A stretch of 64,000 nt of DNA. Source: a virus. The first letter of the stretch is position 1; each line of letters opens with the position of its first letter. Shown here in pieces: positions 4,397 through 31,132 of this stretch. A model generated the notes under the pieces. The model ran no database searches. It saw only the letters and a list, made by a program, of their open reading frames with translations, and was not told where the DNA came from. A program made the position numbers and the translations under genes. The DNA lies in the IMG/VR virus record IMGVR_UViG_3300036761_001135, positions 32,001 through 96,000 of that record; one strand, written 5' to 3'.

Positions 4397-4831
4397 ATGC
4401 CAGGGGACAATACGCCGATAAATCCGGTGGAAGAGGTGTCGGGCGTATACCGTTTGCCGCAGTACCCTTACGCTGCCCCCTACTATCCTCAGCATCATGA
4501 GCCTGCGATTAGCAAGGATTCGTGGGTGCGGATCGTCATGTGGATCATCCCGATCATTTTCACGGCGGGGGCTCTGTTTGTGAGCGTGAAGACCATGACG
4601 CAGCGGCAGGACGATCAGGAGTCGGCGTTGCGGGTGGAGATGGATCGCAGCACCAAGCTCGAATCCGAGCAGCGAATCATGCAATCCACGGTACAGGCGA
4701 TTTCGCAGCAGCAGGATCGGATCGTGAACAAGGTCGAGGTCATCGACGACAAGATGAATGAGCAGAGGTCGCAATTGTCTGCGATTGGCGAGCGAATTGG
4801 GGTGAGAGTTTCCGGTGGACGTGATCGATAG
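4397..4831 (+). CDS. membrane-anchored coiled-coil protein (holin-like?)
   Basis: AGGAGG RBS; one hydrophobic segment then coiled coil. Confidence 0.6.
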   Translation: MPGDNTPINPVEEVSGVYRLPQYPYAAPYYPQHHEPAISKDSWVRIVMWIIPIIFTAGALFVSVKTMTQRQDDQESALRVEMDRSTKLESEQRIMQSTVQAISQQQDRIVNKVEVIDDKMNEQRSQLSAIGERIGVRVSGGRDR

Positions 4832-4837
4832 CAGTCA

Positions 4838-4868
4838 GTTGACAAATTATCTATTGGGGTGGTAAATC
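4838..4868 (+). promoter_or_regulatory. sigma70-like promoter
   Basis: GTTGACAAAT..GGGTGGTAAATCGGT shared with 1052. Confidence 0.65.
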
Positions 4869-4876
4869 GGTTTGCA

Positions 4877-5125
4877 GATCATGGTCGAGGTGGCTATGGT
4901 ACGTCGTCTTTAGGCGACGGTAATCGAACTGGACAGAACTGGATTGATGTCTATTCAGTTGTTTTTGGATCTAGGCGCGGGGCGTCTCGCGTTGCGAAAA
5001 CCGGCTGCAATGGTGCAGTTGATTCGCGGCGCTGGAAGTTGTGCTGGTGGCCGAAAACGAACATTGTGCGTCGGCGTTAGTTGGCGTGCTTAGGCCCTGC
5101 GCCTAGTCCGCTTTGGTTTGTGATC
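4877..5125 (+). ncRNA. candidate structured ncRNA
   Basis: directly after a promoter, no convincing ORF; stems 4902-09/4912-19, 4937-44/4953-60, 4971-83/5094-5106; 5' and 3' ends can pair. Confidence 0.45.
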
Positions 5126-5167
5126 ATTCCCTTTCGATGGGGAGTGCAGGTTGGATAAGGTGGATGT

Positions 5168-5407
5168 GTGAAGAAGCGATGTTGCTCGACCTGTAAGTGG
5201 TGGCTGTCGTTGGACGAAACGGTTCGTCGGAAGCTAGATCCTCCACGGCATCGTTTTGGGACATGCGCGTTCAATTCCTATGTGGAGCACGGGCCGGGAG
5301 TTTTTCGGGAACTTCAAGAGTGGCGCTCGCCGGGGAGTGTGTGTAATTCGTTTGCCATGCGACAACTGCTACAGGAAGAACGGATCGATGAAGGGAGAAA
5401 GCCATGA
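5168..5407 (+). CDS. small Cys-rich hypothetical protein
   Basis: CxxCxWW..GxC..C..F pattern. Confidence 0.55.
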   Translation: MKKRCCSTCKWWLSLDETVRRKLDPPRHRFGTCAFNSYVEHGPGVFRELQEWRSPGSVCNSFAMRQLLQEERIDEGRKP

Positions 5408-13524: not shown

Positions 13525-15879
13525 ATGGACAACGAAAAGATCGAAATCGCGGAACGGTTGCGCTTTGCGGCGGCGGCCTTGGCGAGCGTCTGCGACGGCG
13601 CGCGCAAACAGGATCAGGTCGGCTTTAGCGCGTCGGATACCTCCTATGGGCGGGCCATCGCGGCCACCCCGGCGGATCAATGGACCGAGGCGGATCTGGT
13701 CGCGGTGAGCGACATGCTGGGCCACTACCGGGGCCAGTTGGCGGCCTACGGGGTGGACTGCGATTCCCTGCCGCGCGTGATCAGGACCGTGCCGGTCGAC
13801 CGGCACGCCAACTACGAATCCTTCAAGACGCGAGCGGCGGCGGCGGAGCGAACTCGGGTTCGCGCGGCCTACGCGGCGGGGACGGCGAGTCGCATGCGGG
13901 TGCGCGAGGTGGCGGACTACCTGGCCTGGGTGGACCGGCGCACGGTCTGTTTCGTGAGTCCGAAGAACGATACGTTGATCGCGGCGATCAAGGCACTGCC
14001 TGGTCGGCGGCGTTGGAACGGCGAGGCCCGGCAATGGGAGGCGGAGCTGTCGGCGGAGAACGCGAAGTCGCTACCGGCGATTTTCGCGCGGTTCGATTTC
14101 GTCGTGAGCGATGCGGACTTGGCGACGATCCATGCATCGGCGCAGGCGAATCCGGCGGCGCATGCGGCTCCAGTGGCAGTCGGACCGGACCACGTTTCCA
14201 TCGAGGGGGATCGGATCGTGTTGCGCGTTCCCTACAACCCCGAGGCGACGACGGCGCTCAAGGACGCGCTGCCAGGGCGACGCTGGGATGCAGCGAACAA
14301 GGTCTGGACGGCGCCTGCCACGGCTGAGGCAGCCAAGGCGGTAGAGGCGTTGGCGGCGCGGTTTGGGTGGCGTCTAGGGGCCAGCGCGAAGCCTCTGTGG
14401 GCGATGCGGGTGGAAGCGGATCGCTTCCGGGCGGCGAGCAAGGCGTCGGACGCGGAGATCGACCTTCGAGGTCTGCGGTCAGACGCGGTTCCTTATCCGT
14501 ATCAGAAGGCGGGGGTGGTCTACACGACGTCCAAGCGTCGGGTGCTGATCGCGGACGAAATGGGAATCGGAAAATCATTACAGGCCCTTATGACGGCATC
14601 GCAGTTGGACGCCTGGCCTTGTCTGGTCGTGGCTCCGAAGGCGGTCTTGAGGCAATGGGCGCGGGAGGTCGGGAAGTTCCTGGAAGGGCGCACAGCGAGC
14701 ATTGTAGGGCTCAAGGGGACGGCGAAGCGGCTGGCCAAACACGGGATGGTCGCGGGCATGGGCGGGGACGTTGTGGTCATCAACTACGACATCCTGGGCA
14801 GGCATCTCGATGCGCTGCGGGCGCACGGATTCCGGTCGCTGGTCGTGGACGAAGGCCACTACATCAAGAGCCGCAAGACTGCGCGTTTTAAGGCGGTTAA
14901 GGAGCTGTCGGGGATGCCGGATCTGGCCTGCACGCTGCTGTTGACAGGCACGCCCGTATTGAACCGGCCCATCGAGTTGGTCGCCCAACTGGACGTGTTG
15001 GGTCAGCTTGATTCGTTTGGCGGGTTCATGCCGTTTTCCAAGCGCTATGCGAACGCTCACGAGACGAAATACGGCTGGGACATGACCGGATCGTCCAACC
15101 TGGACGAGCTGAACCGGCTGCTGCGGGAGCGCTGCATGATCCGGCGGGAGAAGGCGGACGTGCTGGCCGAGCTTCCCGCCCTGCGGCGGACCGTGGTCCC
15201 GGTCGAGGTCGATGATCCGCGTGCTTACGAGAGAGCCATGAACGACATTGTGGCTTGGATGGCGGCGAACCGGGGATCGCTCCCGTCCGAGGCGGCCTAT
15301 CGCGCTGAGATGCTGGTTCGGGTCGAGGGATTGCGACAGCTCGCGGCGCAGGGAAAGTACGCGAACGGGGTGGCCTGGGTACAGGAATGGCTTGAGGCGG
15401 CGGAGGGGCAGAAGCTGGTCCTATTCGCGCATCATCGGAACATCCAAGAGCGGCTGCTGGCGGACCTGTCTGAGTACGGCGCGGTGTCGATCAGCGGCGG
15501 GGACGCGGACGCAGCGCGGGACGCGGCGGTACAGCGGTTCTGGGCGGACCCGACCTGTCGCGTGATCGTGTGCAGCCTCAAGGCGGCGAGCGTCGGGCTG
15601 AATTTGCAGGCGGCGAGCAACGTGGCTTTTTTCGAGTTCGGCTGGCACGCGGGAGACATGGACCAGGCGGAAGCGCGCTGCCATCGCATCGGGGTGCAGG
15701 GGGCTGTCACGGCTTATTGGCTAGTCGGGGAGGACACGTTCGACGAGGACATGGTCGCGTTGATCGAGGACAAGAGGGCGGTAGCTCATGCGGCGGTGAG
15801 TGGAGGAGAGGTTGCTCCGCAGACAGACGTTGTGTCCTGGTTCGAGCGTTTGGCGGCGCGCAAGGGTGCCATGGATTGA
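13525..15879 (+). CDS. SNF2/HARP-like helicase
   Basis: ADEMGIGKS, DEGH, LTGTP, GLNLQ, QAEARCHRIG; two N-terminal HARP-like repeats (LPGRRRWN, LPGRRWD). Confidence 0.92.
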   Translation: MDNEKIEIAERLRFAAAALASVCDGARKQDQVGFSASDTSYGRAIAATPADQWTEADLVAVSDMLGHYRGQLAAYGVDCDSLPRVIRTVPVDRHANYESFKTRAAAAERTRVRAAYAAGTASRMRVREVADYLAWVDRRTVCFVSPKNDTLIAAIKALPGRRRWNGEARQWEAELSAENAKSLPAIFARFDFVVSDADLATIHASAQANPAAHAAPVAVGPDHVSIEGDRIVLRVPYNPEATTALKDALPGRRWDAANKVWTAPATAEAAKAVEALAARFGWRLGASAKPLWAMRVEADRFRAASKASDAEIDLRGLRSDAVPYPYQKAGVVYTTSKRRVLIADEMGIGKSLQALMTASQLDAWPCLVVAPKAVLRQWAREVGKFLEGRTASIVGLKGTAKRLAKHGMVAGMGGDVVVINYDILGRHLDALRAHGFRSLVVDEGHYIKSRKTARFKAVKELSGMPDLACTLLLTGTPVLNRPIELVAQLDVLGQLDSFGGFMPFSKRYANAHETKYGWDMTGSSNLDELNRLLRERCMIRREKADVLAELPALRRTVVPVEVDDPRAYERAMNDIVAWMAANRGSLPSEAAYRAEMLVRVEGLRQLAAQGKYANGVAWVQEWLEAAEGQKLVLFAHHRNIQERLLADLSEYGAVSISGGDADAARDAAVQRFWADPTCRVIVCSLKAASVGLNLQAASNVAFFEFGWHAGDMDQAEARCHRIGVQGAVTAYWLVGEDTFDEDMVALIEDKRAVAHAAVSGGEVAPQTDVVSWFERLAARKGAMD
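13846..13865. promoter_or_regulatory. degenerate palindrome copy (intragenic)
   Basis: GAGCGAACTCGGGTTCGCGC. Confidence 0.5.
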
Positions 15880-15929
15880 GAATGCGTTTTGTGCTCTTAT
15901 TTTTTAGTTGCTACTCTTCCTATACCTAT

Positions 15930-16016
15930 GTTGACAAACAAATTTCACGGTGATAAGCATGCGGACATCGGATCGCAGCAACGATTGCTGCTTCACGAGC
16001 GAACCTGGGTTCGCGT
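15930..16016 (+). promoter_or_regulatory. promoter, hairpin and palindrome copy 3 upstream of the RAMP-like gene
   Basis: GTTGACAAAC at 15930; GCAGCAA/TTGCTGC hairpin 15975-15991; GAGCGAACCTGGGTTCGCGT 15997-16016. Confidence 0.7.
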
Positions 16017-16027
16017 AGAGGTGTCAC

Positions 16028-16837
16028 ATGGCGAAGGAAGAAAAAGTTGGCGTTACGACTAAGTTCAAACCGTTTGTTGATATTAGATTTTTGCGAGTGC
16101 GCATCCAGGGCACGGACACGTTGATCGTGCATTCGTGGTCGGAGAAGGCGATCACGGAAATCCTTGGCAAGCAGATGAAGGTGCCCAAGGGGGCCAAGGG
16201 GGAGCGCGATCCTGAGATGGATTTCGAGGCGGGCAAGTATTACGACGTTAATGGTCGTGAGGCTTTCCCGGTGACGGCGGTCAAGAACTCGATGATCACG
16301 GCGGTCAGCTCGGTTGGGGAGATGAAGAAGACCAACATGAGGCAGGCGTTTTTTGTCTGGGGTATTGAGGACAAGGAGCGCGCTACGATCTTGTTGACGT
16401 CGGGTGAGCCTGCGGTTGGAACGATGCGGGCGGACATGGTTCGGCTTGGTGGGCCTGGGAACGCGGCGGACATCCGATTTCGGCCGGAGTATCCCGACTG
16501 GATGACTGACATCATCATCGAGTACAACGCGTTGGTTGTATCAAAAGACCAGATCGTGAATCTTTTAAACATGGCTGGCTACGGGGTGGGAATCTTCGAG
16601 TGGAGACCAGAAAAAGACGGTTACTATGGTCGTTACTTCGTGACTGAGGCAGAGGACATTACGGAACGTCCACAGTGGGTGAAGGCGACTTCATATCTGC
16701 GCAAGGGCGAGATGGATATCCAGACGATCTTGCGGGCTTTGCGGGACAAGAAGGCGGTTTCTGGGACAGAGGTTGTGAACAAGAACAAGAAGGGCAAGAA
16801 GGTCGTCGAGGAGACTGAAGACGATCTGGAGGCATAG
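16028..16837 (+). CDS. RAMP/Cas7-like RNA-binding protein (VIPR-like effector)
   Basis: N-terminal strand RVRIQGTDTLIVH, FPVTAVKNSM helix, DIRFRPEYPDW, C-terminal glycine-rich loop AGYGVGIFEWRPEKDGYYGRY; directly upstream of the pentamer array. Confidence 0.7.
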   Translation: MAKEEKVGVTTKFKPFVDIRFLRVRIQGTDTLIVHSWSEKAITEILGKQMKVPKGAKGERDPEMDFEAGKYYDVNGREAFPVTAVKNSMITAVSSVGEMKKTNMRQAFFVWGIEDKERATILLTSGEPAVGTMRADMVRLGGPGNAADIRFRPEYPDWMTDIIIEYNALVVSKDQIVNLLNMAGYGVGIFEWRPEKDGYYGRYFVTEAEDITERPQWVKATSYLRKGEMDIQTILRALRDKKAVSGTEVVNKNKKGKKVVEETEDDLEA

Positions 16838-16883
16838 CCTCTTTCAAAGGGTCGGGGTCGCCGCTTAGTAGGGAGGCGATCCA

Positions 16884-17960
16884 GTCCAGGCAAGGCAGGA
16901 GCGGGAGGCGAGGATAGGAGAGGCCGGGGAAGGCGTGGCAGGAATGGCACGGGCAGTACGGGATAGGTGCGGCCAGGATTGGCAGGGCAGGAACGGCTTG
17001 GCGCGGATCGGACTGGTTGTTTATGGATCGGAGAGGCAGGAATGGCGGTGCCTGGAGAGCCGAGGAGGGGTATGGAGGGTTGAGGAACGGCAGGAGTGGA
17101 AAGTTAAGGCGTGTGGAGGTCGGGCCGGGACTGGCGAGGCAGGAGAGGTTGGCATGGATTGTCACGGCGCGGATCGGCAGGAAAGGTCTGGCTTGGATAG
17201 TCGGGTCACGGATTGGCAGGCGAGGCGGGGACCGGCGGGGAGAGGCGCAGAGAGGCAGGATTGGATCGGTGCGGAACGGTGTGTCGTGGCATGGCAGGCA
17301 TGGCAGTGTCGGGAATGGGTTGGTAGGGAAAGGCGCGGCTGGGCAGGAATGGCCAGGACGCGACGGGAGGGGCGAGTGGTGGTGCGGAATGGCAAGGCAG
17401 GCGAGTCTGGGAGCGGTGTGGTGAGTTGTGGAATGGAGTGGACTGGAAGGCAGGATAGGTGAGGCGCGTTCTGGCCTGGGTAGGTCGGGATTGGCGAGGC
17501 AGGATAGGTTGGGTCCGAACGGGCGCGTCGTGGGGTGGGATGGCAAGGCAGGTATGGCAAGGCTAGGACTGGCGAGTTGAGGAGTGGAAGGGGGAGGCAG
17601 GCGGGGATAGGTCTGGAGGGGATAGGCGAGGTTTGGAAGGGATTGGCAGGAGAGGATAGGCAAGGCCAGGCATGTTGTGGGATGGCAGGGACTGGCAGGA
17701 TTGGCACGGAATGGTCGGGTGGCGTCTGGTGTGGTAAGGCGAGGATTGGCAGGCGTGTTGCGGCAAGGCTCGGACGGATGGACTGGGCAGGGCAGGTTGG
17801 GAGTGGGATGGATTGGATTGTTGAGGCCGGGCTGGAGAGGCCAGGTGGGACACGGTGGGAATGGGCTGGGCCAGGATTGGCTGGAATGGTGGGGTATGGA
17901 GGGCCAGGGTGGCGCTGGGCAAGGAAGCTTCTGGCGTGTCAGGAGTGGAAAGGTCTGTAG
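16884..17960 (+). repeat. array of GG(A/C/T)NN pentamers in ~22 units separated by GGCA delimiters (putative guide-RNA array)
   Basis: GGCA at 16894, 16937, 16986, 17035, 17089, 17138, 17176, 17215, 17254, 17293, 17342, 17396, 17449, 17498, 17547, 17596, 17645, 17694, 17748, 17791; degenerate GGCT at 17830, 17879; units mostly 35, 45 or 50 nt. Confidence 0.9.
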
Positions 17961-17965
17961 GGGTG

Positions 17966-18053
17966 CCGCTCGTCATGGAGCGGAAGCGTCTGTAGGAGTT
18001 CGAAACGCAGCAGGGCTGGCATCTCTAGGGGTGCCGGCCCTGTCCTGCCTTGC
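17966..18053 (+). other. structured array trailer with anti-delimiter
   Basis: hairpins 17966-17983 and 18011-18042; TCCTGCCTTGC 18043-18053 is the reverse complement of GCAAGGCAGGA 16890-16900. Confidence 0.6.
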
Positions 18054-18080
18054 GTAAAGAACTTGTGGTATACAGCATCC

Positions 18081-18536
18081 ATGAGCAACAAACCTGCAAC
18101 CCAAGAAGGTTCCATGCAGTGGGGGCTCTCGCCAGAAGGTGCCGTGTTCAGCGAAGATTTCGAGGGCTGGCTTTGGATCCCAGTGGATCGACTCATCGTG
18201 ATCGACCAGTGCCAGAATCGTGATCAGTATTCTACCTGGGCCACCCCCTCATGGCAGGGAATCTCCATCTGCGGAGTGCATCACACAGACCAAGATGAAA
18301 AAATCGACCGGTTCGTAAAAGCATGCCTCCACGGTCCCATCTTGCTACAACCAAAACGACTGTGCGCCGTCCGTAGCGTATCCTCAGAAAAACCGCCAAC
18401 CAACGTCATGGTGCTCGATCACATCTCCGTCGTGAAAATACGAAAATCCCCCTTCATCGACCGACTCTATAGCGACATGGACCTGATAGGACGACTCCTA
18501 TCCCTACACACAAACATCCCAACCCCGATCTCTTGA
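18081..18536 (+). CDS. hypothetical protein
   Basis: 151-codon ORF; A/C-rich, unlike neighbours; no clear RBS. Confidence 0.4.
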   Translation: MSNKPATQEGSMQWGLSPEGAVFSEDFEGWLWIPVDRLIVIDQCQNRDQYSTWATPSWQGISICGVHHTDQDEKIDRFVKACLHGPILLQPKRLCAVRSVSSEKPPTNVMVLDHISVVKIRKSPFIDRLYSDMDLIGRLLSLHTNIPTPIS

Positions 18537-18680
18537 CAAACTTGTCGCACAAAGCCTAATTTCAATGCACGCTCTAAGCTGTAGCGGTCCCAACCATAGA
18601 CCGCATTGATGTACAAGGCTGAAAAAGATGACCCGTGTCACGATGAATATGATATATCATATTACTGTATCGAGGGGACC

Positions 18681-19427
18681 ATGAGCAAAGCGGTCCCATA
18701 CTCAAAACTCAAGAAGATGCGCTGCCATAGAGAAGTCTATGAAAGACTGTGCGCTGGTTATCCCTTCCCAGAGGTGGCTAGGTTTATTCAAGAGGACGAA
18801 GGCGAGTACCTAGACGTAGGTCGCCGATCCCTCATTGAAATATTGCGCGACTATTCCGAACGCGAAATCGTCGGTGTAGATCTGATCGCACCACGCTTGC
18901 CGCATTTGATCGTGAAGGCACAAAAGGAATTCAGTGACCGATTGGAGGATCTCCGTCGCCTGGAGCGAGCCTACGAGGCGTTGTTGTACAGATTCGATAT
19001 GTCCCATGGTGCGGAGCGGCGCAACGGCAGGGTGAACGCGGACGTAGACCGGCAGGCCAAGGTCTTGATGGACTATGTGTCCAAGATGCACGACATCAAG
19101 ATGGATTTGGGGCTCACGGGGTCGCGTGATCTTGGCACGTTGACGGTGAGTGCAGAGCGTCTGGCAGAGATTCGGGACAAGTACGGCGAGGGTGCGGCGC
19201 GTGCCTTTGGAGATCCGGTCTCACGAGCCAAAGTTCTTGGTCTGTTGAAGCGTGTGATGCGCATTTCGGAAGACTCTGGCATCGACGATGCGGACGTTGA
19301 AGAGGCGAACCTGGGTTCGCGTGACGATCCCGAACTTTATGAGGACGCCATAGAGGCCGAATATTGTGAGGCGACTACCCCAAAATCGACTAGCGAGAGT
19401 GCCGAACAAGATTCGGAAGACAGATGA
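18681..19427 (+). CDS. putative terminase small subunit
   Basis: helical protein overlapping the terL start (ATGA); TTGACA at 18533 upstream; identity inferred from position. Confidence 0.6.
   Translation: MSKAVPYSKLKKMRCHREVYERLCAGYPFPEVARFIQEDEGEYLDVGRRSLIEILRDYSEREIVGVDLIAPRLPHLIVKAQKEFSDRLEDLRRLERAYEALLYRFDMSHGAERRNGRVNADVDRQAKVLMDYVSKMHDIKMDLGLTGSRDLGTLTVSAERLAEIRDKYGEGAARAFGDPVSRAKVLGLLKRVMRISEDSGIDDADVEEANLGSRDDPELYEDAIEAEYCEATTPKSTSESAEQDSEDR
19303..19322. promoter_or_regulatory. palindrome copy 4 (intragenic)
   Basis: AGGCGAACCTGGGTTCGCGT. Confidence 0.8.
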
Positions 19428-22400
19428 TCGTAACAGGCAACAATGGTCGTCGCAGAAGCATTAGGACGACCAGCGAGGACGTGTTGTCGTTCGAGGATGG
19501 GTACGCCCTATGCACACCAGAGGAGCGCGCCTTAGTCCATGCTTTGTTGAGCGATGACCACCCAAACGATGCGGCGAAGCTCAGTTTGGAGTTGAACGAT
19601 TCGCTCTATCAGCGGCCATTGGTGCCGATCCAGCAGTTCATCGAAGATCCTTATTACCTTGGGGACTCCATGATGACTCTGTATCCGGCGTTAAAGCAGG
19701 ATATTATTGACCTTTTTGCGGCTCCATACAGGGAAGTCGTGCTCACGGGCTCCATCGGCGCGGGCAAGAATTTTTTGGCATCTGCGGCGATTTGCCGAAT
19801 TTTGTACGAGCTGTCCTGCCTGAAGAACCCACAGATGACGTTTGGGATGTCTCCTGGTACAGAGATGGTGATCATGCTGATCTCGAAGAACCTCGTCTTA
19901 GCCCGCGAGGTGATGAAGACCAGCATCGACGACAAGGTGAAGCTCAGCCCGTACTTTATGCAGCACTTCACCCCCAAGTTCTCGACCGACTACACGCTGT
20001 TTCCCAACAACATCCGCATGACCATCGGAAGCTATGGGGCAGAGCGTGCCTTGGGAGCGAATATTTTTAGCTGCATGCTGGACGAATGTCTCAGTGGTTC
20101 AGCATGGTTGCAAATAAAAATAAATATTGATTTTTGCGCTGGTTTGTGCGATACAATCGGCATGTCCGTTGGTGATTTGTGGGCAATGGGGCCTTCGGAT
20201 CGTGACGGGTTGCTGGTTGAAGCGCTGGACCATGTGACGGGTCGGCAGACGTGGACGCCGTTTCGGATGCGGCTATCCACGGTGCAACCGTTGGTACGGA
20301 TTGAAGCCGAGGCGAACCCAGGTTCGTGTCGAGCCATCGAGCCTTCCCTTGAACATCCTGTATTGGTGCGGCGCGGCGACTGGCTAGTTTATGTCCCGGC
20401 GATTGAGATCAGCGTCGGGGATGAAGTGGCTTGGAGGCGCGACGATGGCGAAAAAGGGCGAGACACTGAGCGAGGAGATGAAGGCACGTCTATCGGAGGC
20501 GGCGAGCCAGCGGACTGGCGAACTCAATCCATTCTGGGGGAAGACGCACAGCGAGGAGATTCGAGCTTTGTTTGCGGAGAACGCGCGGAAGCAGTGGACG
20601 GGGACGCACCAAAGCGAGGAGACAAAGGCGAAGAGATCGGCATCTTTGAAGGGGCGCGTCATGTCTGCGGAGACGCGGGCAAAGATGGCAGCTTCGGCAA
20701 AGGCACGTTGTACGCCGGAGTGGCGTGCGAAGAAGTCGGCAGAGATGCAGGAACGTGTTGCAGCAGGGCTGGGACCGACGCCACCAATTCAACCTGCCGG
20801 GCCAGATCATCCGTTGAGTGGGAAGCCGAAGACGGAACAGCATCGACAGGCGTTGAGCGCGGCGAGGCTAGGGTTGCCGGGCCATGCGCACACCGAGGAG
20901 TCGCGGGACAAGATTTCGGCGGGGAACGTGCAGGCGATCAAAGATCGGGTGCGGTCATACCGCTACCATGTGTCATCGCCGGATGGCGGGGTGGTTCCAT
21001 GCCGGACGGAGAACGAAGGTCGTTTGGCGCTCCACCTATGTGCGGAGAAGAATGTAACAGCGGTCGTTGGCGAAGATCATATGACGTGGGTGCCATACAG
21101 CATAAACGGACAAAATCGGTTGACAGTGGGAGACTTTCTTGTGACGAGGGACGACGGGGTGCAGGTTTTGGTGGAAGGAAAAGACCCAACGTCCATGTAC
21201 AACCAGCGTACAATGGCGCGCATAGAGGCGCTGTGGAAGTGGAGTCAGGAGAACAGGGTTCTGTTTATTCTTGCGATCAATGGGAAGCCATTCCCAAGCG
21301 TATGGACAGGCCCATTTGTGGACAAATTTCTCATGGACCATCTGTTTTATCAACGACAACGTGTAATCAGGAGGAGGGTCAACTCTGTTGTAATTTCTCC
21401 TTGCGGAACGATTGTGCCGTGCAAAACGGAGATGGAACGGGCGCTGGCGAGATGTTTGTGTATGGAACCTGGAGTTGCCAGTGTGGTTGGAACGGATCGG
21501 ACAGGGTCGATTCCGTACACCACGAGCGGACGAGTGCATCATGTGGAGCCAGGTTTCATGGTGACGCGGTCGGACGGGGTCATTGTCGTTGTGGAGGTGG
21601 AGACGGCATCTGGTCTGTATCGAGAGAAAGACAGGGCGCGGTTGGAGGCATTGTGGGCGTGGTGCCAGGAGCACAAGACGCCGTTTGTGTTGGCTATCAA
21701 CGAAAAGGGGTTCCCGAGCGTATGGACGGGGCCGTTTGTGACGGAAGAGTTCATGGAGAGCGTGCGGCAACGTCGCGTGCGCTTTCGCACCATGCAGACG
21801 GTCGATACCTTGGAGGTTGCCGTGCCGAGTGTTTGCGAGTTGACGACCTGCCTACAGAGTACCGACTCGTTCGCGTGATCTCGACGCGCCTGTTGCCGGC
21901 CGAGCAGACCTACAGCATCGAGACGGACTGCAAGACGTTTGTGGCTGACGGATGCGTGGTCCACAACACCAACTTCCCGCCCAAGAGAAGTGCTCAGCAG
22001 ATTAACCAGACGTTTGGCAAGAAGCTGACGGCGGCCAACTTTGACATCGTGGAGAAGGTGTACCGATCCATGCTGCGGCGCATCAAGTCGCGCTTCCAGA
22101 TCGCTGGCGGCGACTTTCCGGGCATGGTCATCATGGTGTCTTCGGCGGCGACCTTGGACAGCTTCACAGAGCGCAAGTTGAGGGACGCGCGTCGAGACCC
22201 AACTGTGTTCGTTCGAGATCACACGGCGTGGACATCGAAGCCCAGGGATCATTTTTGTGGTAAATGGTTCTACGTGCTGTGTTCAAAATCCAGCCTTCGG
22301 TCTCGTATTCTCGAAGAGGGCGAGTACAACGAGATCACGCAGGAGTTTTTGCAGGAAAACAATGCGTGGATGATCGAAGTGCCGATTGAGTATAGGGAGG

Positions 22401-24649
22401 ACTTCGAGTCCAACCTTGAGGACTCCTTGCGAGACATCGCGGGCGTGTCCACGCAGGCCATCTCGGCTTTCTTCCAGAGGGTGGATGCCATCGACGCCTG
22501 CATAGTGGATCGTCCGCATCCATTCTCCAGCGAGGTCTGGGTGGCTGGGTCGCCGGCGACGTTCACTTGGGATACGCTATGTCGGAAGATCGAGCGGAGA
22601 CTGCCGGGTGGATTTGTAGAAGCCGCATGGGCACCGAAGGAATCTCCAAGCCATCCTCGTTGGATTCATATTGATACTTCCATCAGTGGGGACTGCGTGA
22701 CGGCGGATACGCTGGTGGCAACCCCGGCTGGGAACGTTCGCATTGATTCCATCGTTGCGGGAACTCCTGTGTATAGTCTGGGTGCAGACGGAAAGTTCAC
22801 GGTTGCCACTGCGACGAATCCTGGTCTGAAACGGCGGGAGTCGCCGTTGGTACGTGTCGTGACAGATGGGGGATCGATTCGGTGTACGCCCGATCACAAG
22901 TTCATGTTGCGTGATGGAACATATTGCGAGGCCAGGCTTTTGCGGGATGGAGATTCGTTGATGCCACTGTACAGGCGTTGTTCAGCTAAGCATCCTGGAC
23001 GTCGCGGGGGTGGAGGGTACGAGGAAATTTATCAGCCTGCGTCAGAGCGGTATGCGGCAGCTCATCGTGCGGTGGCGGAATATAAGATAGGTAGATTGCT
23101 AACTGAAGACGAGTGCGTTCACCATGTGGGAACCGAGAATCCAGACAATAAGTTAGACAACCGGCCAGAGAATCTGGAGGTGATGGCGAAGCGGGACCAC
23201 TGGCGTTTACACCAGACGCTGATTGTCGCCTACAACAAAAGTGAGCGGCATCGTGCCTGGGCTCGGGAGTGGGGGCTATGGTCTTGCACGCATCCGACGC
23301 CTGCCATGGTGGAGGCGCGTCGTCGGAATGGGAGTGCGCGGTGCCGATTGATCAATGCTGGGGAATCGAACCCATCCAAGCTGGAGAAAAATAGGAAGCG
23401 ATTTGGGGACATGGTGCGGGAGCGGCATGCCAATGGTTTGTGTACGGAGAACTACAAGAATTTTAAAAGACCTGAAGTACGTGAGAAAACTCGTGCGGCG
23501 GTGTCGATTTCCAGTCGAAATCGCCAATGGAGCGATGAGAGCCGACGCAAGTTATCCATTCGCCGACAGGAATACTTGGCCAGGGTTGCCTCGGGGGAAA
23601 TCGAACAGAAGCCGGTTAGCGCGGAGACACGGGCTAAGATGTCTGCGTCGCGTCGTGGCAAGACATGGACAGATCAGGCTAGAACGAATCATATGGCTTC
23701 CTTGAAGCAACAGGAGTGGACAGAAGAGAGCCGGGCTAAGATAGCAGACGCCAATAGAAACCGCGTGTGGAGTGAGGAGAGCCGTCAGAAATGTGCAGAG
23801 GCACAACGGAGACGGCATGAGAAGAAGCAGTCACAGCGGGAGATTAAGAATCACAAGGTTTTGCGGGTGGAGGATGCGGGCCATGAGGATGTGTATTGCC
23901 TGACGGTGGACGGTGAGCACAACTTCGTGGTGGTGTTTGGCGAGGATCGATTTTCGTCTGGGGTTGTGATCCACAACAGCACAGGATTCGTGATGGGGCG
24001 GATAGAAAGATGGGTAGAGGTAGTGCGCCGTGACGGGGACGGCCATGCCTATACGGACACCGCGCCTTATTACGTCATCGAGGTGCTTCTGTGCATTCGG
24101 CCTCCGACCGGCGATCAAATCTACATGCCGGATTTGAGAAGGCTGGTTTACGAATTGCAGGCGCATGGTTTTCCTATCCATGGGTTTTCGTCAGATTCAT
24201 TCCAAGCCGTGGAAATGCACCAACAGATTCGGCGGCACGGAATCCATACCGAGCTGATTTCGATGGACCGCATCATAGATCCCTATGAGGAGTTGAAGTC
24301 GGCAATTTATGAAAAAAGGATTGAGTATTACGGGTATACTCCATTGCTTCAAGAACTAAGATCGCTTGAGTATGATCGTGTAAAAGGAAAAATAGACCAT
24401 CCTCGTCATGCCAGTAAGGACGTTGCCGATGCATTGGCTGGCGTGGTCTGGGGCCTTCGCCAACAGGCCGCTCGCTTGCCGTGGGCTGCGGATGCTGATA
24501 CACCAATAAGAGCGGTCGGTCATGAGCATGGCTGGGTGAGCGACATGATCCCAGCGGAGGACGTGGATCTCGAAGATGTGAGGTTAACTCGCAGGACGGG
24601 TGCCGCCGCATTAGATATCATGCTCCCATTTTTCATAGGAGATGACTGA
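19424..24649 (+). CDS. terL: terminase large subunit with two inteins (mature ~686 aa)
   Basis: Walker A GSIGAGK, Walker B CMLDE, nuclease HIDTSISGD, KIDHP..SKDVADALAG; upstream of portal. Confidence 0.92.
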   Translation: MIVTGNNGRRRSIRTTSEDVLSFEDGYALCTPEERALVHALLSDDHPNDAAKLSLELNDSLYQRPLVPIQQFIEDPYYLGDSMMTLYPALKQDIIDLFAAPYREVVLTGSIGAGKNFLASAAICRILYELSCLKNPQMTFGMSPGTEMVIMLISKNLVLAREVMKTSIDDKVKLSPYFMQHFTPKFSTDYTLFPNNIRMTIGSYGAERALGANIFSCMLDECLSGSAWLQIKINIDFCAGLCDTIGMSVGDLWAMGPSDRDGLLVEALDHVTGRQTWTPFRMRLSTVQPLVRIEAEANPGSCRAIEPSLEHPVLVRRGDWLVYVPAIEISVGDEVAWRRDDGEKGRDTERGDEGTSIGGGEPADWRTQSILGEDAQRGDSSFVCGERAEAVDGDAPKRGDKGEEIGIFEGARHVCGDAGKDGSFGKGTLYAGVACEEVGRDAGTCCSRAGTDATNSTCRARSSVEWEAEDGTASTGVERGEARVAGPCAHRGVAGQDFGGERAGDQRSGAVIPLPCVIAGWRGGSMPDGERRSFGAPPMCGEECNSGRWRRSYDVGAIQHKRTKSVDSGRLSCDEGRRGAGFGGRKRPNVHVQPAYNGAHRGAVEVESGEQGSVYSCDQWEAIPKRMDRPICGQISHGPSVLSTTTCNQEEGQLCCNFSLRNDCAVQNGDGTGAGEMFVYGTWSCQCGWNGSDRVDSVHHERTSASCGARFHGDAVGRGHCRCGGGDGIWSVSRERQGAVGGIVGVVPGAQDAVCVGYQRKGVPERMDGAVCDGRVHGERAATSRALSHHADGRYLGGCRAECLRVDDLPTEYRLVRVISTRLLPAEQTYSIETDCKTFVADGCVVHNTNFPPKRSAQQINQTFGKKLTAANFDIVEKVYRSMLRRIKSRFQIAGGDFPGMVIMVSSAATLDSFTERKLRDARRDPTVFVRDHTAWTSKPRDHFCGKWFYVLCSKSSLRSRILEEGEYNEITQEFLQENNAWMIEVPIEYREDFESNLEDSLRDIAGVSTQAISAFFQRVDAIDACIVDRPHPFSSEVWVAGSPATFTWDTLCRKIERRLPGGFVEAAWAPKESPSHPRWIHIDTSISGDCVTADTLVATPAGNVRIDSIVAGTPVYSLGADGKFTVATATNPGLKRRESPLVRVVTDGGSIRCTPDHKFMLRDGTYCEARLLRDGDSLMPLYRRCSAKHPGRRGGGGYEEIYQPASERYAAAHRAVAEYKIGRLLTEDECVHHVGTENPDNKLDNRPENLEVMAKRDHWRLHQTLIVAYNKSERHRAWAREWGLWSCTHPTPAMVEARRRNGSARCRLINAGESNPSKLEKNRKRFGDMVRERHANGLCTENYKNFKRPEVREKTRAAVSISSRNRQWSDESRRKLSIRRQEYLARVASGEIEQKPVSAETRAKMSASRRGKTWTDQARTNHMASLKQQEWTEESRAKIADANRNRVWSEESRQKCAEAQRRRHEKKQSQREIKNHKVLRVEDAGHEDVYCLTVDGEHNFVVVFGEDRFSSGVVIHNSTGFVMGRIERWVEVVRRDGDGHAYTDTAPYYVIEVLLCIRPPTGDQIYMPDLRRLVYELQAHGFPIHGFSSDSFQAVEMHQQIRRHGIHTELISMDRIIDPYEELKSAIYEKRIEYYGYTPLLQELRSLEYDRVKGKIDHPRHASKDVADALAGVVWGLRQQAARLPWAADADTPIRAVGHEHGWVSDMIPAEDVDLEDVRLTRRTGAAALDIMLPFFIGDD
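20310..20329. promoter_or_regulatory. palindrome copy 5 (inside intein 1)
   Basis: AGGCGAACCCAGGTTCGTGT. Confidence 0.78.
20445..21878 (+). CDS. endonuclease nested in the +1 frame of intein 1 (NUMOD3-like repeats plus two TnsA-like PD-(D/E)xK domains)
   Basis: own GGAGG RBS; HSEE, SEETKAK, SAETRAKM, HTEESRDKIS repeats; GDFLV..VEGK; duplicated FPSVWTGPFV. Confidence 0.82.
   Translation: MAKKGETLSEEMKARLSEAASQRTGELNPFWGKTHSEEIRALFAENARKQWTGTHQSEETKAKRSASLKGRVMSAETRAKMAASAKARCTPEWRAKKSAEMQERVAAGLGPTPPIQPAGPDHPLSGKPKTEQHRQALSAARLGLPGHAHTEESRDKISAGNVQAIKDRVRSYRYHVSSPDGGVVPCRTENEGRLALHLCAEKNVTAVVGEDHMTWVPYSINGQNRLTVGDFLVTRDDGVQVLVEGKDPTSMYNQRTMARIEALWKWSQENRVLFILAINGKPFPSVWTGPFVDKFLMDHLFYQRQRVIRRRVNSVVISPCGTIVPCKTEMERALARCLCMEPGVASVVGTDRTGSIPYTTSGRVHHVEPGFMVTRSDGVIVVVEVETASGLYREKDRARLEALWAWCQEHKTPFVLAINEKGFPSVWTGPFVTEEFMESVRQRRVRFRTMQTVDTLEVAVPSVCELTTCLQSTDSFA
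22694..23977 (+). mobile_element. intein 2 in TerL (428 aa) with in-frame HNH and NUMOD3-like repeats
   Basis: GD|CVTADT..CTPDHKF..HRAVAE..VHH..NKLDNRPENL..VYCLTVDGEHNF..IHN|S. Confidence 0.92.
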
Positions 24650-28336: not shown

Positions 28337-31132
28337 ATGCCGCAGTTACTGATCGAAACCAGCAAGCCCGTTGCGTTCCAGATGACCGAGGCTCGTGCGG
28401 CCAAGGGTTCGGGCAAGCTTGTGGCGCGTGGCGAGTTCGGTCGGGTCGGCGTACCGACGCAGAACGGTCGTCGCTATTCCGAGTCGTTGATGAACCGCGA
28501 GATCAAGCGTCTCAATGAGGATCTCAAGTCGAGGCGTGTGCTCGGAGAACTCGATCATCCGTGCCTGACATCGGACGACTTCCGGGTGCTCACATCGGAT
28601 GGATGGAAGGCATTCCGGGACGTGCATGTTGGGGATCGTGTTTGGTCGCGTGTGTCGGGAAAGGCAGTGCTATCTGACGTCACAGGAATCACGGACGAGC
28701 CGTATGACGGGCCTGCATATCATGTAAACGGGCGCAGCATGGATGCGACGTTTACTCCTGCGCACCGCTTCTTGTTGGTGAAGCGACCAGACCGCATGGG
28801 CCATGGGGCAGAGGAGGAGTTCGTTCCTCTTGCGGAGATTGCGGCGCACCCGGAGCGGTTCGGGCACCATGCCGTGCCAAAGACGGCGGAGTTCTGTTCG
28901 GAGGCCATGCCGCAGGTGACGATTCCTGGCGTGCAGGCCAAGCGGCTGGCGTCGTGCAAGAACGATGTGTCGCAGCCGTTGGTGCTAGATTCCTCATTGT
29001 TTGCGGCGTTCATGGGCATATATCTCGCGGAGGGATCTTGCTCGGCGGAAAGCTCGGACAACTACGACGTTCACATCTCGCAGAAGACGTCGTGGAGCAA
29101 ACAGTTCATCTACAACGAGGTGCTTTCCAAGTTCCCGGAAGAGTTGGAGTGGCGCGAGGTAAACGGTGGGTACGCGCTGGCTGACCAGCGGCTATACGCC
29201 TATCTGAATGCGCTTGGAAATATGTACACCAAGCGTGTCCCGGACGAGGCCAAGCGACTGGACGCGGATAGCTTGCGCGAGATGTTGTTCTGGTTCTGCA
29301 TCGGGGACGGCCGCATGGTGGCGAGTGGCGCTTCCAAGAAGGCGGAGATGACCCCGGATGGACAGACGACAAAGGAGGCGCTAGCGGAGACGTTGCGTGA
29401 GGGGCATATCCCCTTCACGAGACAGGATGCCTTCTCGGTATCCGAGGGCCTCGTCCGCGATTTGCACGAGTGCCTGGTGAGGGCTGGCGGTGCGGGCAGC
29501 ATTATGAAGATCGATCCTGACCAGGATTACGAGTACGCGGGTCGTACTATTCTGGCGGAGAATAAGGTGCCGTTGTACCAGTTGCACATCTGCCAATCGG
29601 CGAACGTGTGGATGGACCCGCGCCACCTGGCAGTTGAGTCGGTGCATCACACGGGCGGTATCTACTGCCTGAGTACGACGCATGGGTCGTTCTACATGGA
29701 GCAGGGCGGCCACGCTTTCTGGACGGGGAACAGCGATGGCAAGACCTCGTTGAAGCGGGTCAGTCACGTCATCACGGACCTGTGGATCGAGAAGGGCCTG
29801 GTCATGGGCGAGGCCGAGATCCTGAACACGCCGGAGGGGAAGACCTTGAAGGCGTTGATCGAGGCGCAGATCCCAATCGGCGTGTCGTCACGCGGGTTCG
29901 GCAGCACCAAGCCAGCGGCAGATGAGGCGGAGGATGTGCAGGACGACTTCCTGCTGAAGACCTACGATTTCGTGGCGGACCCGGCGGTGAAGACGGCCAT
30001 CCCCAATATCACCATGGAGTCCGTGGACGATCCCACGGCGGCGCAGATGTTCTTGGCGGAGTTCCCGGACGTGGCGACGCAGATCCAGGAGGCGGCGGCG
30101 CAGGATGCGTTGTCCAAGGCCAAGGACAAGGTGACCTCTGGGTTGGAGGCGGCGGTGCAGGCGGCCGAGAAGCGCGTGCGCGTCGAGATGACGGAAGCGT
30201 TTGAGAAGAACCTGGCGCAGTCGCTGATCGAGGTGCGTGAGGATCTTGGCAACCAACTCCGCGAGGAGTACGCGACCGATCCGGCTGTTGGTGCGGCGAA
30301 GGCTGTCTTGGCGCAGATCGCTGAGATGGTTGGATCGTATCGCCAGCATCCAGACGAGGCGGCGGTACGGGATGCGTTGCGGGCTAAGGATCTGGAGGTG
30401 GCCGAGCGCACGCAAGAGCGGGACGAGGCGATTGATCTGGGCACGCGGGCAGCGGTGTTGCTGCATGTGGAGCGCAAGATCAGCGGGCACCCGATGGCAG
30501 AGGCCGTGCGGGCGCTGATGCACGGCGTACAGGTCACGTCGATCATGGACGTTGACGCGAAGTTGGCGGCCATCATGGAGAACCTACCAGAGCAACCGGC
30601 TGTGGATGTGATCCCGACCGGGCCATCGGAGGACGAGGTTCAGCTACGGGAAGAGAACGCGACACTGCGCGGCGAAATCAAGCTGGTGCAGGCAAAGGCG
30701 GAGTCGTTGGACGAGAAGTTGAGACGTGTTGTAGAGCTGACAAAACGGGCAGACGACCGCTTGGCGGAGTCCGATGCTCGGGCCGAGAAGGCAGAGGCGC
30801 TGTTGGAAGAGGCGCAAGAACGCGCCGTTCAGGCAGAGCTAGACGCCTACAAGGCCAGCAAGGTTGCAGGGATGGTGAACAGTTCGAGTGTGTTGGGTCT
30901 GTTGGAGGACGTCTCCTCCAGGGCCGATGTGGACAAGGTCGTGGCGAAACACGGGGCCATGGAGATCTCGGATCCGCTCTTGCGAGAGATGCGTAGATCG
31001 CTACAACGCGGTCATGGCGACGAGCAGGAGTTGACCGAGGACCGGCAGCCGCAGGGTGGTCGAGTGCGAGGTTCCGACGACTTCGGAAATTCGTTTGACA
31101 TCATGCGGAAACTTGCTGGGTACAACAACTGA
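28337..31132 (+). CDS. prohead protease (T4 gp21-like) fused to scaffold-like coiled coil, with intein
   Basis: NGRRY, GELDHP, VSHVIT, NTPEGK, GVSSRG, DFVADPA; long coiled-coil C-terminus. Confidence 0.9.
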   Translation: MPQLLIETSKPVAFQMTEARAAKGSGKLVARGEFGRVGVPTQNGRRYSESLMNREIKRLNEDLKSRRVLGELDHPCLTSDDFRVLTSDGWKAFRDVHVGDRVWSRVSGKAVLSDVTGITDEPYDGPAYHVNGRSMDATFTPAHRFLLVKRPDRMGHGAEEEFVPLAEIAAHPERFGHHAVPKTAEFCSEAMPQVTIPGVQAKRLASCKNDVSQPLVLDSSLFAAFMGIYLAEGSCSAESSDNYDVHISQKTSWSKQFIYNEVLSKFPEELEWREVNGGYALADQRLYAYLNALGNMYTKRVPDEAKRLDADSLREMLFWFCIGDGRMVASGASKKAEMTPDGQTTKEALAETLREGHIPFTRQDAFSVSEGLVRDLHECLVRAGGAGSIMKIDPDQDYEYAGRTILAENKVPLYQLHICQSANVWMDPRHLAVESVHHTGGIYCLSTTHGSFYMEQGGHAFWTGNSDGKTSLKRVSHVITDLWIEKGLVMGEAEILNTPEGKTLKALIEAQIPIGVSSRGFGSTKPAADEAEDVQDDFLLKTYDFVADPAVKTAIPNITMESVDDPTAAQMFLAEFPDVATQIQEAAAQDALSKAKDKVTSGLEAAVQAAEKRVRVEMTEAFEKNLAQSLIEVREDLGNQLREEYATDPAVGAAKAVLAQIAEMVGSYRQHPDEAAVRDALRAKDLEVAERTQERDEAIDLGTRAAVLLHVERKISGHPMAEAVRALMHGVQVTSIMDVDAKLAAIMENLPEQPAVDVIPTGPSEDEVQLREENATLRGEIKLVQAKAESLDEKLRRVVELTKRADDRLAESDARAEKAEALLEEAQERAVQAELDAYKASKVAGMVNSSSVLGLLEDVSSRADVDKVVAKHGAMEISDPLLREMRRSLQRGHGDEQELTEDRQPQGGRVRGSDDFGNSFDIMRKLAGYNN
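28562..29731 (+). mobile_element. intein 3 (390 aa, LAGLIDADG-type) in prohead protease
   Basis: HP|CLTSDD..TPAHRF..GIYLAEGS..FCIGDG..IYCLS..WTGN|S. Confidence 0.9.

What the first reader, a model, noticed from the sequence alone, without database searches (positions are those of the whole stretch)
16894..17960. Array grammar: quantised units of 7, 9 or 10 pentamers, unique variable content, degenerate 3' end
Seen: distances between GGCA delimiters give units of 39, 45, 45, 50, 45, 34, 35, 35, 35, 45, 50, 49, 45, 45, 45, 45, 45, 50, 39, 35 and 45 nt, so multiples of 5 or one base short. Pentamer positions 1-2 are nearly always GG (occasional GT, TG, GC), position 3 is mostly A/C/T, and positions 4-5 vary freely. 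No two units share the same NN string. The last delimiters decay to GGCT and GTCA, like a CRISPR trailer end. Inference: this is information storage (about 14-20 variable nt per unit), not a slippage microsatellite. Read forward as codon positions 1-2, many strings look protein-like, e.g. unit 4 AT GG CT GA GA GG AT GG GA AC. How new units are written is unexplained; I see no reverse transcriptase or integrase in the window.
Basis: partly seen in the sequence, partly recalled or inferred. Interest (0 to 1): 0.85.

Follow-up and report, generated by a model that had tools for sequence, protein, structure and literature searches.

The report
Phage VIPR guide-RNA array (staggered type)
The 1.1-kb stretch of GG-phased five-base repeats is the guide-RNA array of a VIPR system, a phage RNA-guided DNA-recognition system first described in a 2026 preprint; it sits next to its Cas7-like protein gene and at least two of its guides appear aimed at genes of sibling phages.

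Summary
About 190-200 GGNNN pentamers are broken by 4-base words, mostly GGCA. True spacings are 39, 44, 49, 54 and 59 nt, always 5n-1.

The array lies 50 nt downstream of a 269-aa gene. Its model has a Cas7/Csm3/Cmr4 fold, and its family profile hits the RAMP ORF inside the VIPR locus of Escherichia phage SUSP1 (E=1e-14). Of 80 bacterial loci encoding a homologue, 70 carry phased GG arrays, always on the gene's strand and often GGCA-delimited. This fits the "staggered, 1-nt overlapping" vrRNA arrays of bioRxiv 10.64898/2026.04.26.720920.

Between related phages, substitutions follow the pentamer phase, not codon phase. Whole units are gained, lost and shuffled.

Under the published 1-nt-skip rule, two guides match sibling phages' genes: 17/18 in the gene upstream of the terminase and 16/18 in vipr. 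Both are in frame with the skipped base at wobble. The carrier's own copies differ at 3 (synonymous Leu/Arg first positions) and 8 positions. Statistical support for these targets is moderate.

Verdict: a new member of a recently described kind. Other first-reader notes of this scan cover the same stretch.

The parts
16028..16837 (+). vipr-like gene: 269-aa RAMP (Cas7-like) protein, PHROG 4652, no Pfam family
   Evidence: AF2 model has pLDDT 84. Foldseek top hits are all Cas7-family chains: Cmr4 6s6b_I E=4e-6, Csm3, type VII Cas7. VIA-align gives Z=10.8 to Csm3/Cmr4. Conserved Gly-rich motif around G184-G201. Family profile hits the SUSP1 VIPR-locus ORF at E=1.1e-14.
16838..16888 (+). short leader with a conserved stem (GTCGCC/GGCGAT; GATCGC/GCGATC in relatives) ending in CAGGCA(A/T)GGCAGG
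   Evidence: Alignment of six phages. An A-to-G change keeps the pair as G-U on the + strand. No terminator lies between the gene and the array.
16889..17960 (+). staggered vrRNA array: about 192 GGNNN pentamers in about 22 units of 6-11 pentamers, separated by 4-base words (18 GGCA)
   Evidence: Same position and grammar in five related IMG/VR phages. Folds no better than shuffles, z=+0.55.
17400..17444 (+). guide unit whose NN string matches the vipr gene of a sibling phage (L004) at 16/18; own vipr differs at 8/18
   Evidence: In frame, skipped base at wobble.
17453..17497 (+). guide unit whose NN string reads Y-(D/E)-A-L-L-Y-R-F-(D/E); it matches the 273-aa gene of sibling phages at 17/18 (L003, L004) or 16/18 (L005, L008)
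17776..17880 (+). two 3'-terminal units that are nearly invariant in all six phage arrays; their few changes fall on pentamer positions 2-3
   Evidence: An IMG/VR search with its NN string gave only chance-level hits.
17940..18062 (+). structured trailer; long hairpin at about 18011-18042, no U tract here
   Evidence: RNA fold -57.9 kcal/mol, z=-4.2, 0 of 200 shuffles as stable. Relatives L004 and L005/L006 have a hairpin followed by a T run at the same place.
18606..19427 (+). 273-aa gene directly upstream of and overlapping the large terminase start (small terminase by position only). It carries the near-self site 18972-18997.
   Evidence: Own site matches guide 17453 at 15/18. The three mismatches are Leu TTG for CTN (twice) and Arg AGA for CGN. 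No Pfam or PHROG family.

Best explanation
The array is the guide-RNA (vrRNA) array of a phage VIPR system, in its 'staggered' form.

Inferred mechanism. It is transcribed on the + strand, probably together with the upstream RAMP gene. It is cut at or next to the GGCA|GG junctions. At these junctions one G is shared by the last pentamer of one guide and the first pentamer of the next, which gives the 5n-1 spacing. The result is about 22 guides of 6-11 pentamers.

Vipr subunits would bind the invariant GG (plus an unpaired third base) of each pentamer and present bases 4-5. Successive NN pairs read double-stranded DNA with one base skipped between them, so a guide reads codon positions 1-2 of a coding target.

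Binding would repress or block the target. At least two guides are aimed at genes of closely related phages: the vipr gene and the gene upstream of the terminase. This points to competition between sibling phages. The carrier's own copies escape through synonymous Leu/Arg first-position changes or through amino-acid divergence.

Shown here: the grammar, the RAMP fold, the homology to the SUSP1 locus ORF, the gene-array association, the pentamer-phased constraint, and the skip-1 matches.

Inferred from the preprint and not tested here: transcription, processing, RNP formation, DNA binding and repression.
For: 1. Published system with the same grammar: GGY/NN pentamers, a Vipr RAMP, a 1-nt skip rule with the skipped base at wobble, staggered arrays with 1-nt overlaps, and NNNGG variants.
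2. The adjacent 269-aa protein has a Cas7/Csm3/Cmr4 fold.
3. Its family profile hits a 201-aa ORF of phage SUSP1 at E=1.1e-14. That ORF has one GGYNN tract upstream and three downstream on its own strand, as the preprint describes for the SUSP1 VIPR locus.
4. 70 of 80 bacterial loci encoding a homologue carry phased GG chains on the gene's strand; none reached the threshold on the opposite strand. Chains abut with a 1-nt overlap and GGCA words in Alphaproteobacteria, Clostridia and mycobacteriophage Saal.
5. The array is conserved in place and grammar in five related phages. Substitutions follow the pentamer phase (33, 109, 229, 131, 156 for positions 1-5) and show no 3-nt periodicity.
6. All guides were scanned against this genome plus the relatives' loci. 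Hits with at least 83% NN match: skip-1 36 against 4.0 in dinucleotide-order shuffles; skip-0 7 against 4.25; skip-2 4 against 4.5; skip-3 2 against 3.25. The 36 are inflated by homologous loci and by guides shared between the window and L002.
7. On non-redundant guides and targets, best hits with at most 1, 2 or 3 mismatches numbered 1, 3 and 15, against 0.08, 0.75 and 8.1 expected.
8. Guide 17453 matches siblings at 17/18 and its own gene at 15/18. All three self-mismatches fall on the only synonymous first-position options.
9. Guide 17400 matches the L004 vipr at 16/18 and its own vipr at 10/18.
10. Relatives have a hairpin plus T run after the array on the + strand. The array body is unstructured and the trailer is structured.
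Against: There are no RNA data for this uncultivated phage, so transcription, processing sites and guide ends are inferred.

There is no ~40-nt invariant 3' tail after each repeat tract, unlike the characterised type II vrRNAs. Position 3 is A in 37% of pentamers, so the motif is GGH/NN or GG/NNN rather than GGY/NN. No recognisable vap gene was found.

Target statistics on non-redundant data are only moderate, roughly p=0.02-0.08 per threshold. Most guides have no identified target. Exact-pattern scans of IMG/VR gave nothing above chance.

The own-gene match of 15/18 (83%) exceeds the preprint's 80% target threshold, whereas the preprint found no self hits at that level.
Confidence: 0.85

Rival explanations
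1. Same VIPR machinery, but used for self-regulation. Partially matched guides such as 17453 (15/18 to its own 273-aa gene) would tune expression of the phage's own packaging genes rather than attack competitors.
For: The own-genome site 18972-18997 matches at 83% NN, in frame, 1 kb downstream of the array. Only 1 of 20 shuffled guides reached 15/18 anywhere in the genome. The array sits at the boundary of the replication and packaging modules.
Against: Sibling phages that lack this guide match it better (17/18, 16/18) than the carriers do. The self mismatches use all three available synonymous escape positions. Guide 17400 has 8 mismatches to its own vipr. Overall the phage's own guides match its own genome no better than shuffles.
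Confidence: 0.08
2. A DNA-level element: a packaging (pac) or terminase recognition region, a G-quadruplex or R-loop-prone origin, or a Chi-like protective array. In this reading the GG phasing serves DNA structure or protein binding rather than an RNA guide.
For: It lies immediately upstream of the terminase-portal module. It is strongly G-rich on one strand (G 49%, C 15%; GC skew 0.55). GG-N3 spacing could in principle form two-tetrad quadruplexes (my inference).
Against: Across 80 bacterial loci and in phages SUSP1 and Saal, the arrays travel with the RAMP gene and on its strand, not with terminase genes. None of these ideas explains near-maximal entropy at positions 4-5 with strict GG phase, the 5n-1 junctions, or the in-frame skip-1 matches.
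Confidence: 0.03
3. A non-guide RNA that acts as a sponge or scaffold for a ring-shaped or period-5 RNA-binding protein (TRAP-like, CsrA-like), or a protein-coding repeat (Gly-rich on +, Pro-rich on -).
For: TRAP binds 11 triplets at about 5-nt spacing (general knowledge). One minus-strand frame is stop-free across all 357 codons of the window's array.
Against: No Rfam family matches. The stop-free minus frame is reached by mononucleotide shuffles (mean longest run 202 codons, maximum 357), and most relatives' minus frames carry stops. Unit indels are 5n-1, not multiples of 3. Substitutions show no codon periodicity. The neighbouring conserved protein is a RAMP, not a TRAP- or CsrA-type protein.
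Confidence: 0.02

Closest known systems
VIPR systems (Viral Interference Programmable Repeat), bioRxiv 10.64898/2026.04.26.720920; characterised type II loci of Escherichia phage SUSP1 and a Pseudomonas fulva prophage
   Same: A phage-encoded single RAMP protein lies next to tandem 5-nt repeats with invariant GG and hypervariable NN on the same strand. NN read as codon positions 1-2 with the skipped base at wobble. Targets lie in competing, related mobile elements, including other VIPR loci. There is no Cas1/Cas2, RT or integrase. The protein family is detectably homologous to the SUSP1 locus ORF.
   Different: The SUSP1-type vrRNAs are separate ~100-nt RNAs, each with 9-16 repeats and a ~40-nt structured tail. 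Here about 22 guides of 6-11 repeats are packed head to tail with only a 4-base GGCA junction. The third base is A/C/T rather than pyrimidine. No vap gene was recognised. One guide matches its own genome at 83%.
'Staggered vrRNA arrays' and NNNGG-type vrRNAs, mentioned in the same preprint (legend of Fig. S18; type-classification methods)
   Same: [quoted passage not shown] That is what the 5n-1 spacing and GGCA|GG junctions show here and in Saal, Rhizobium, Ancylobacter and Clostridiales loci.
   Different: The preprint says only the ribozyme-interspersed and single-vrRNA architectures were confirmed by sRNA-seq; staggered arrays were not. I could not see the figure or the type assignment, so which of the seven types this locus belongs to is unknown.
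Class 1 CRISPR-Cas effector backbones (Cas7/Csm3/Cmr4 on crRNA)
   Same: The protein shares the RAMP fold (Z up to 10.8). The RNA is periodically gripped by a repeated subunit, with some bases kept from pairing. The array holds unique targeting segments.
   Different: The period is 5 nt with 2 pairing bases, not 6 nt with 5. There are no 25-40-nt direct repeats, no cas1/cas2 and no other cas genes. It is phage-borne, and units change by mutation and recombination rather than by polarised spacer acquisition.

Membership tests
VIPR system | Vipr protein with a RAMP fold (RRM core, Gly-rich loop, thumb) | tested here: met
   AF2 model has pLDDT 84. Foldseek top matches are all Cas7-family, E=4e-6 to 1e-4. 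VIA-align Z=10.8, with nearly all of the top 40 being RAMPs. Invariant Gly-rich motif G184...G201. The thumb is inferred only from the conserved-Arg beta-hairpin 132-155 of the model.
VIPR system | Sequence relationship to an experimentally characterised Vipr | tested here: met
   Profile A1 hits SUSP1 28486-29064(-) at E=1.1e-14 over positions 18-202. That ORF has one GGYNN tract upstream and three downstream on its strand, matching the preprint's description. That this ORF is the published Vipr is my inference from that layout.
VIPR system | Tandem pentamer repeats GGY/NN (or the related consensus NNNGG) next to vipr on the same strand | tested here: met
   GG 95%/88%; position 3 not-G; NN entropy 3.84 of 4 bits. 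The gene-array association holds in 70 of 80 homologue loci, with no locus reaching the threshold on the opposite strand.
VIPR system | Invariant structured 3' tail after each repeat tract (type II vrRNAs) | tested here: not met
   Units are separated only by a 4-base word. A single structured trailer follows the whole array. This matches the preprint's 'staggered' architecture instead.
VIPR system | Targets recognised by the 1-nt skip rule, with the skipped base at codon wobble | tested here: met
   Skip-1 gave 36 hits against 4.0 in shuffles; other skips were at background. Non-redundant test: 1, 3 and 15 best hits at up to 1, 2 or 3 mismatches, against 0.08, 0.75 and 8.1 expected. Two in-frame guide-target pairs. 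Support is moderate and computational only.
VIPR system | No self-targeting at 80% NN match or above | tested here: not met
   Guide 17453 matches its own gene at 15/18 = 83%. The mismatches are synonymous recodings, and siblings match better.
VIPR system | vap accessory gene beside vipr | tested here: inconclusive
   A ~165-aa ORF lies between vipr and the array in alphaproteobacterial loci (A2). It has no homologue in this contig. The upstream SNF2 helicase is syntenic only within the phage clade.
VIPR system | vrRNAs expressed, processed and bound by Vipr; RNP binds dsDNA | not testable with these tools
   No RNA or biochemical data exist for this uncultivated phage.
CRISPR-Cas | Array of identical direct repeats of about 25-40 nt with unique spacers, plus the cas1/cas2 adaptation module | tested here: not met
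   The only repeated words are GG and a 4-base junction. There is no Cas1 match in the 168.7-kb contig, while controls ring in 7 of 14 genomes.

The most novel reading that the evidence does not exclude
The array records a codon-level arms race between sibling phages. Guides are aimed at the siblings' vipr and terminase-adjacent genes. The carrier protects its own copies by switching every available six-fold-degenerate codon (Leu CTN to TTG, Arg CGN to AGA). Arrays diversify without any acquisition enzyme, by block transposition, unit gain and loss, and exchange of whole GGCA-bounded units between phages. For example, L002 is 99% identical to this phage in the flanking proteins but has a reordered array and shares units with the more distant L008. 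The relaxed third base and the tail-less, 1-nt-overlapping packing may also mean a processing mechanism different from the characterised type II system.
Probability: 0.45. Interest if true: 0.6.

Novelty: new member of a known kind. Interest (0 to 1): 0.45.

Why it matters
VIPR was described only in 2026 and is proposed as an ancestor of CRISPR RAMP effectors. Its staggered array form has not been verified experimentally.

This locus is a long example (about 22 guides) in a 169-kb uncultivated phage with a T4-type portal. Five related arrays allow comparison.

It offers natural guide-target pairs with a built-in self/non-self contrast: 17/18 in a sibling against 15/18 in the carrier, differing only at synonymous sites. 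That contrast could be used to measure how many NN mismatches the system tolerates.

It also shows that many deposited phage genomes carry unannotated or mis-annotated arrays of this kind, for example mycobacteriophages Saal and Gorge and probably the Gordonia phages that encode Vipr homologues.

Tried and rejected
- Rfam scan of 15500-19500 at E<=1 gave no family.
- blastn and megablast against 50,697 phage records gave only a 61-nt match to the arrays of mycobacteriophages Saal and Gorge. This later turned out to be meaningful.
- Exact 1-nt-skip patterns in IMG/VR:
  - Guides 17698 and 17600 gave 0 hits.
  - The conserved guide 17829 (17 specified bases) gave 13 hits in 4 independent clusters. 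Ten were in one enterobacterial-type lysozyme gene, with the skipped base at codon position 2. I judged this chance.
  - Guide 16985 gave one AT-rich non-coding hit.
  - Guide 17039 gave 4 unrelated clusters, 3 of them in frame. This shows that in-frame chance hits are common, because NN strings look like codons.
  - The interior of guide 17341 hit 4 homologous GC-rich contigs in frame, 19/22 overall. I fetched the complete 62-kb phage (G306) and a relative to look for convergence of other guides. Only 13/14 hits out of codon phase turned up, so this remains a candidate not distinguishable from chance.
- One Rhizobium leucaenae prophage guide, searched in 301 genomes of its family with up to 3 mismatches, gave 0 hits.
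- Extending the related contigs to their full length added no further strong targets.
- The hit of guide 17093/L002-3776 in the L003 terminase gene has its skipped base at codon position 1 and was rejected.
- Self-targeting of the genome as a whole is not above shuffles.
- A vap homologue was not found.
- The preprint's supplementary files are not held, so I could not check whether this Vipr clade or its type is listed.
- No complex prediction was attempted.

Full report
**What is there.**
Window 16889-17960 lies between the stop of a 269-aa gene (16028-16837) and a small ORF (18063-18536). It is G 49% and C 15%.
- G autocorrelation peaks at lag 5 (0.43). Beyond about 25 nt the peaks shift to 5k-1.
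- A register-tracking segmentation shows why. Runs of GGNNN pentamers are interrupted every 6-11 pentamers by a 4-base word. There are 192 pentamers and 28 tetramers, 18 of them GGCA.
- Positions 1-2 are G in 95% and 88% of pentamers. Position 3 avoids G but is otherwise free. Positions 4-5 are near maximal entropy.
- No two units share an NN string.
- The array is unique in the 168,688-bp IMG/VR contig. That contig carries nearly all genes on one strand with a genome-wide GC skew of about 0.2.

**Context.**
- Upstream lie a DNA methylase, thymidylate kinase, DHH phosphoesterase and SNF2 helicase.
- Downstream lie two ORFs without families, an intein-bearing large terminase and a T4-type portal.
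- Five related IMG/VR phages (flanking proteins 62-99% identical) have an array of the same grammar at the same place.
- In three of them the array is followed on the + strand by a hairpin plus T run.
- In the window the trailer 17940-18062 is strongly structured (z=-4.2), while the array body folds no better than shuffles (z=+0.55).

**Identification.**
A literature search found bioRxiv 10.64898/2026.04.26.720920. It describes VIPR systems as follows:
- a phage-encoded RAMP (Vipr) plus vrRNAs made of GGY/NN pentamers;
- the NN pairs read dsDNA with one base skipped, usually the codon wobble;
- natural targets lie in competing phages and in other VIPR loci;
- variants include NNNGG repeats and "staggered arrays" whose vrRNAs overlap by 1 nt.

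I tested the defining features.
- The 269-aa protein's AlphaFold model (pLDDT 84) matches Cas7-family chains almost exclusively: Foldseek E=4e-6 and VIA-align Z=10.8.
- Its family profile hits a 201-aa ORF of phage SUSP1 at E=1.1e-14. That ORF has one GGYNN tract upstream and three downstream on its own strand, the layout published for SUSP1.
- In a scan of 185,579 species genomes, 105 stretches encode a relative. Of the 80 loci kept, 70 carry phased GG chains on the gene's strand; none reached the threshold on the other strand.
- In Rhizobium, Neotabrizicola, Ancylobacter, Sphingomonas, Methylobacterium, a rumen Clostridiales MAG and mycobacteriophage Saal, the chains abut with a 1-nt overlap at GGCA|G.

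The "delimiter" is thus the place where two pentamer registers share one G. This is the staggered architecture.

**Constraint.**
- Between homologous units of the six phage arrays, substitutions by pentamer position are 33, 109, 229, 131, 156.
- In four less dependent array pairs, the pentamer-phase effect has p=0.001-0.012. Coordinate mod 3 shows nothing (p=0.6-0.9).
- No frame is protein-constrained. A stop-free minus frame in the window is a composition effect: shuffles reach it and relatives break it.
- Position 3 changes fastest and positions 4-5 are better kept. This fits a code in which NN, not position 3, specify the target. The position 3 versus 4 versus 5 contrast is only a trend within single pairs (p=0.05-0.26).
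- In the invariant 3' units, the few changes fall on positions 2-3.

**Array dynamics.**
L002 has 99%-identical flanking proteins, yet its array differs.
- The block 17400-17551 of the window sits at the 5' end of the L002 array.
- Six window units (17151-17341) have no counterpart in L002.
- L002 has units otherwise seen in the more distant L008.
- One pair of neighbouring units in the window is an 80% duplicate.
- There is no RT, Cas1 or tyrosine integrase anywhere in the contig.

New content therefore seems to arise by duplication, mutation and recombination at the unit junctions. This last point is inference.

**Targets.**
I scanned all guides of at least 8 pentamers from the six arrays against this genome and the relatives' loci, with arrays masked.
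- Skip-1 gave 36 hits with at least 83% NN match, against 4.0 for shuffles that keep the dinucleotides. Skip-0, -2 and -3 were at background. The 36 include redundant homologous loci.
- With distinct guides and non-redundant targets, the best hits with up to 1, 2 or 3 mismatches were 1, 3 and 15, against 0.08, 0.75 and 8.1 expected. This is moderate support.
- Guide 17453 reads as the peptide YEALLYRFD of the 273-aa gene just downstream.
  - Siblings lacking the guide match at 17/18 (L003, L004) or 16/18 (L005, L008).
  - The two carriers match at 15/18. Their three mismatches are exactly the two Leu codons (TTG for CTN) and the Arg codon (AGA for CGN).
- Guide 17400 matches the vipr gene of L004 at 16/18 (first 16 of 16). 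The carriers' own vipr differs at 8 positions and in the peptide.
- Both sites are in frame with the skipped base at wobble.
- This agrees with an earlier first-reader note on the terminase-adjacent gene. I had first dismissed that note as chance from the own-genome scan alone.
- Most other guides have no target in the data I could reach. Exact-pattern scans of IMG/VR were at chance level.

**Verdict.**

The system is a member of the VIPR family in its staggered form, so it is not categorically new. It differs from the characterised loci in four ways:
- a relaxed third base;
- tail-less packing of about 22 guides;
- no recognisable vap gene;
- a near-self match that seems to be defused by synonymous recoding.

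Transcription, processing and DNA binding remain untested.

Noticed in passing
L105/L106 (Mycobacterium phage Saal NC_023580, about 36,614-36,810) and Gorge NC_051664 36,936-36,997: Cultured mycobacteriophages carry a staggered GGCA|G pentamer array (units of 12 pentamers, 59 nt) directly upstream of a Vipr homologue (Saal gp51). In Saal the array is unannotated. In Gorge it lies under 'gp53 hypothetical protein', probably a spurious ORF call. 27 Mycobacterium and 5 Gordonia phage records encode homologues.
   Followed up: partly
L011-L019, about 4620-5170 of each locus (alignment A2): A conserved ~165-aa ORF sits between the vipr homologue and the array in alphaproteobacterial loci. It reaches no Pfam family threshold and is absent from this phage. 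It is a candidate vap accessory protein.
   Followed up: partly
L117 (G306:C1) 2854-4170, minus strand; site 3956-3987: A complete 62-kb GC-rich IMG/VR phage and three relatives carry an in-frame 19/22 match (interior 18/18) to guide 17341, in a 438-aa ORF of unknown function. It is a candidate natural target, but I could not distinguish it from chance.
   Followed up: yes
window 19424-24649: The large terminase gene is 1741 aa, with an intein splicing domain and HNH/NUMOD3 endonuclease matches. Another follow-up of this scan already covers it.
   Followed up: no
whole contig G000 (168,688 bp): G is 35% and C 24% on the + strand along the whole contig (GC skew about +0.2 in almost every 1-kb window), with nearly all long ORFs on that strand. 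This is an unusually strong and uniform strand asymmetry for a phage.
   Followed up: no
L002 3717-3900 versus L008 5239-5395: Two phages with otherwise different relatedness share identical array units, including an irregular stretch with GGTC and GGCC junctions. This suggests exchange of array cassettes between phages.
   Followed up: partly
window 16889-17960, minus strand: One minus-strand frame is free of stops across the whole array (357 codons). Composition alone explains it, since shuffles reach the same length and most relatives' frames have stops. Gene callers may still annotate a false Pro-rich ORF here.
   Followed up: yes
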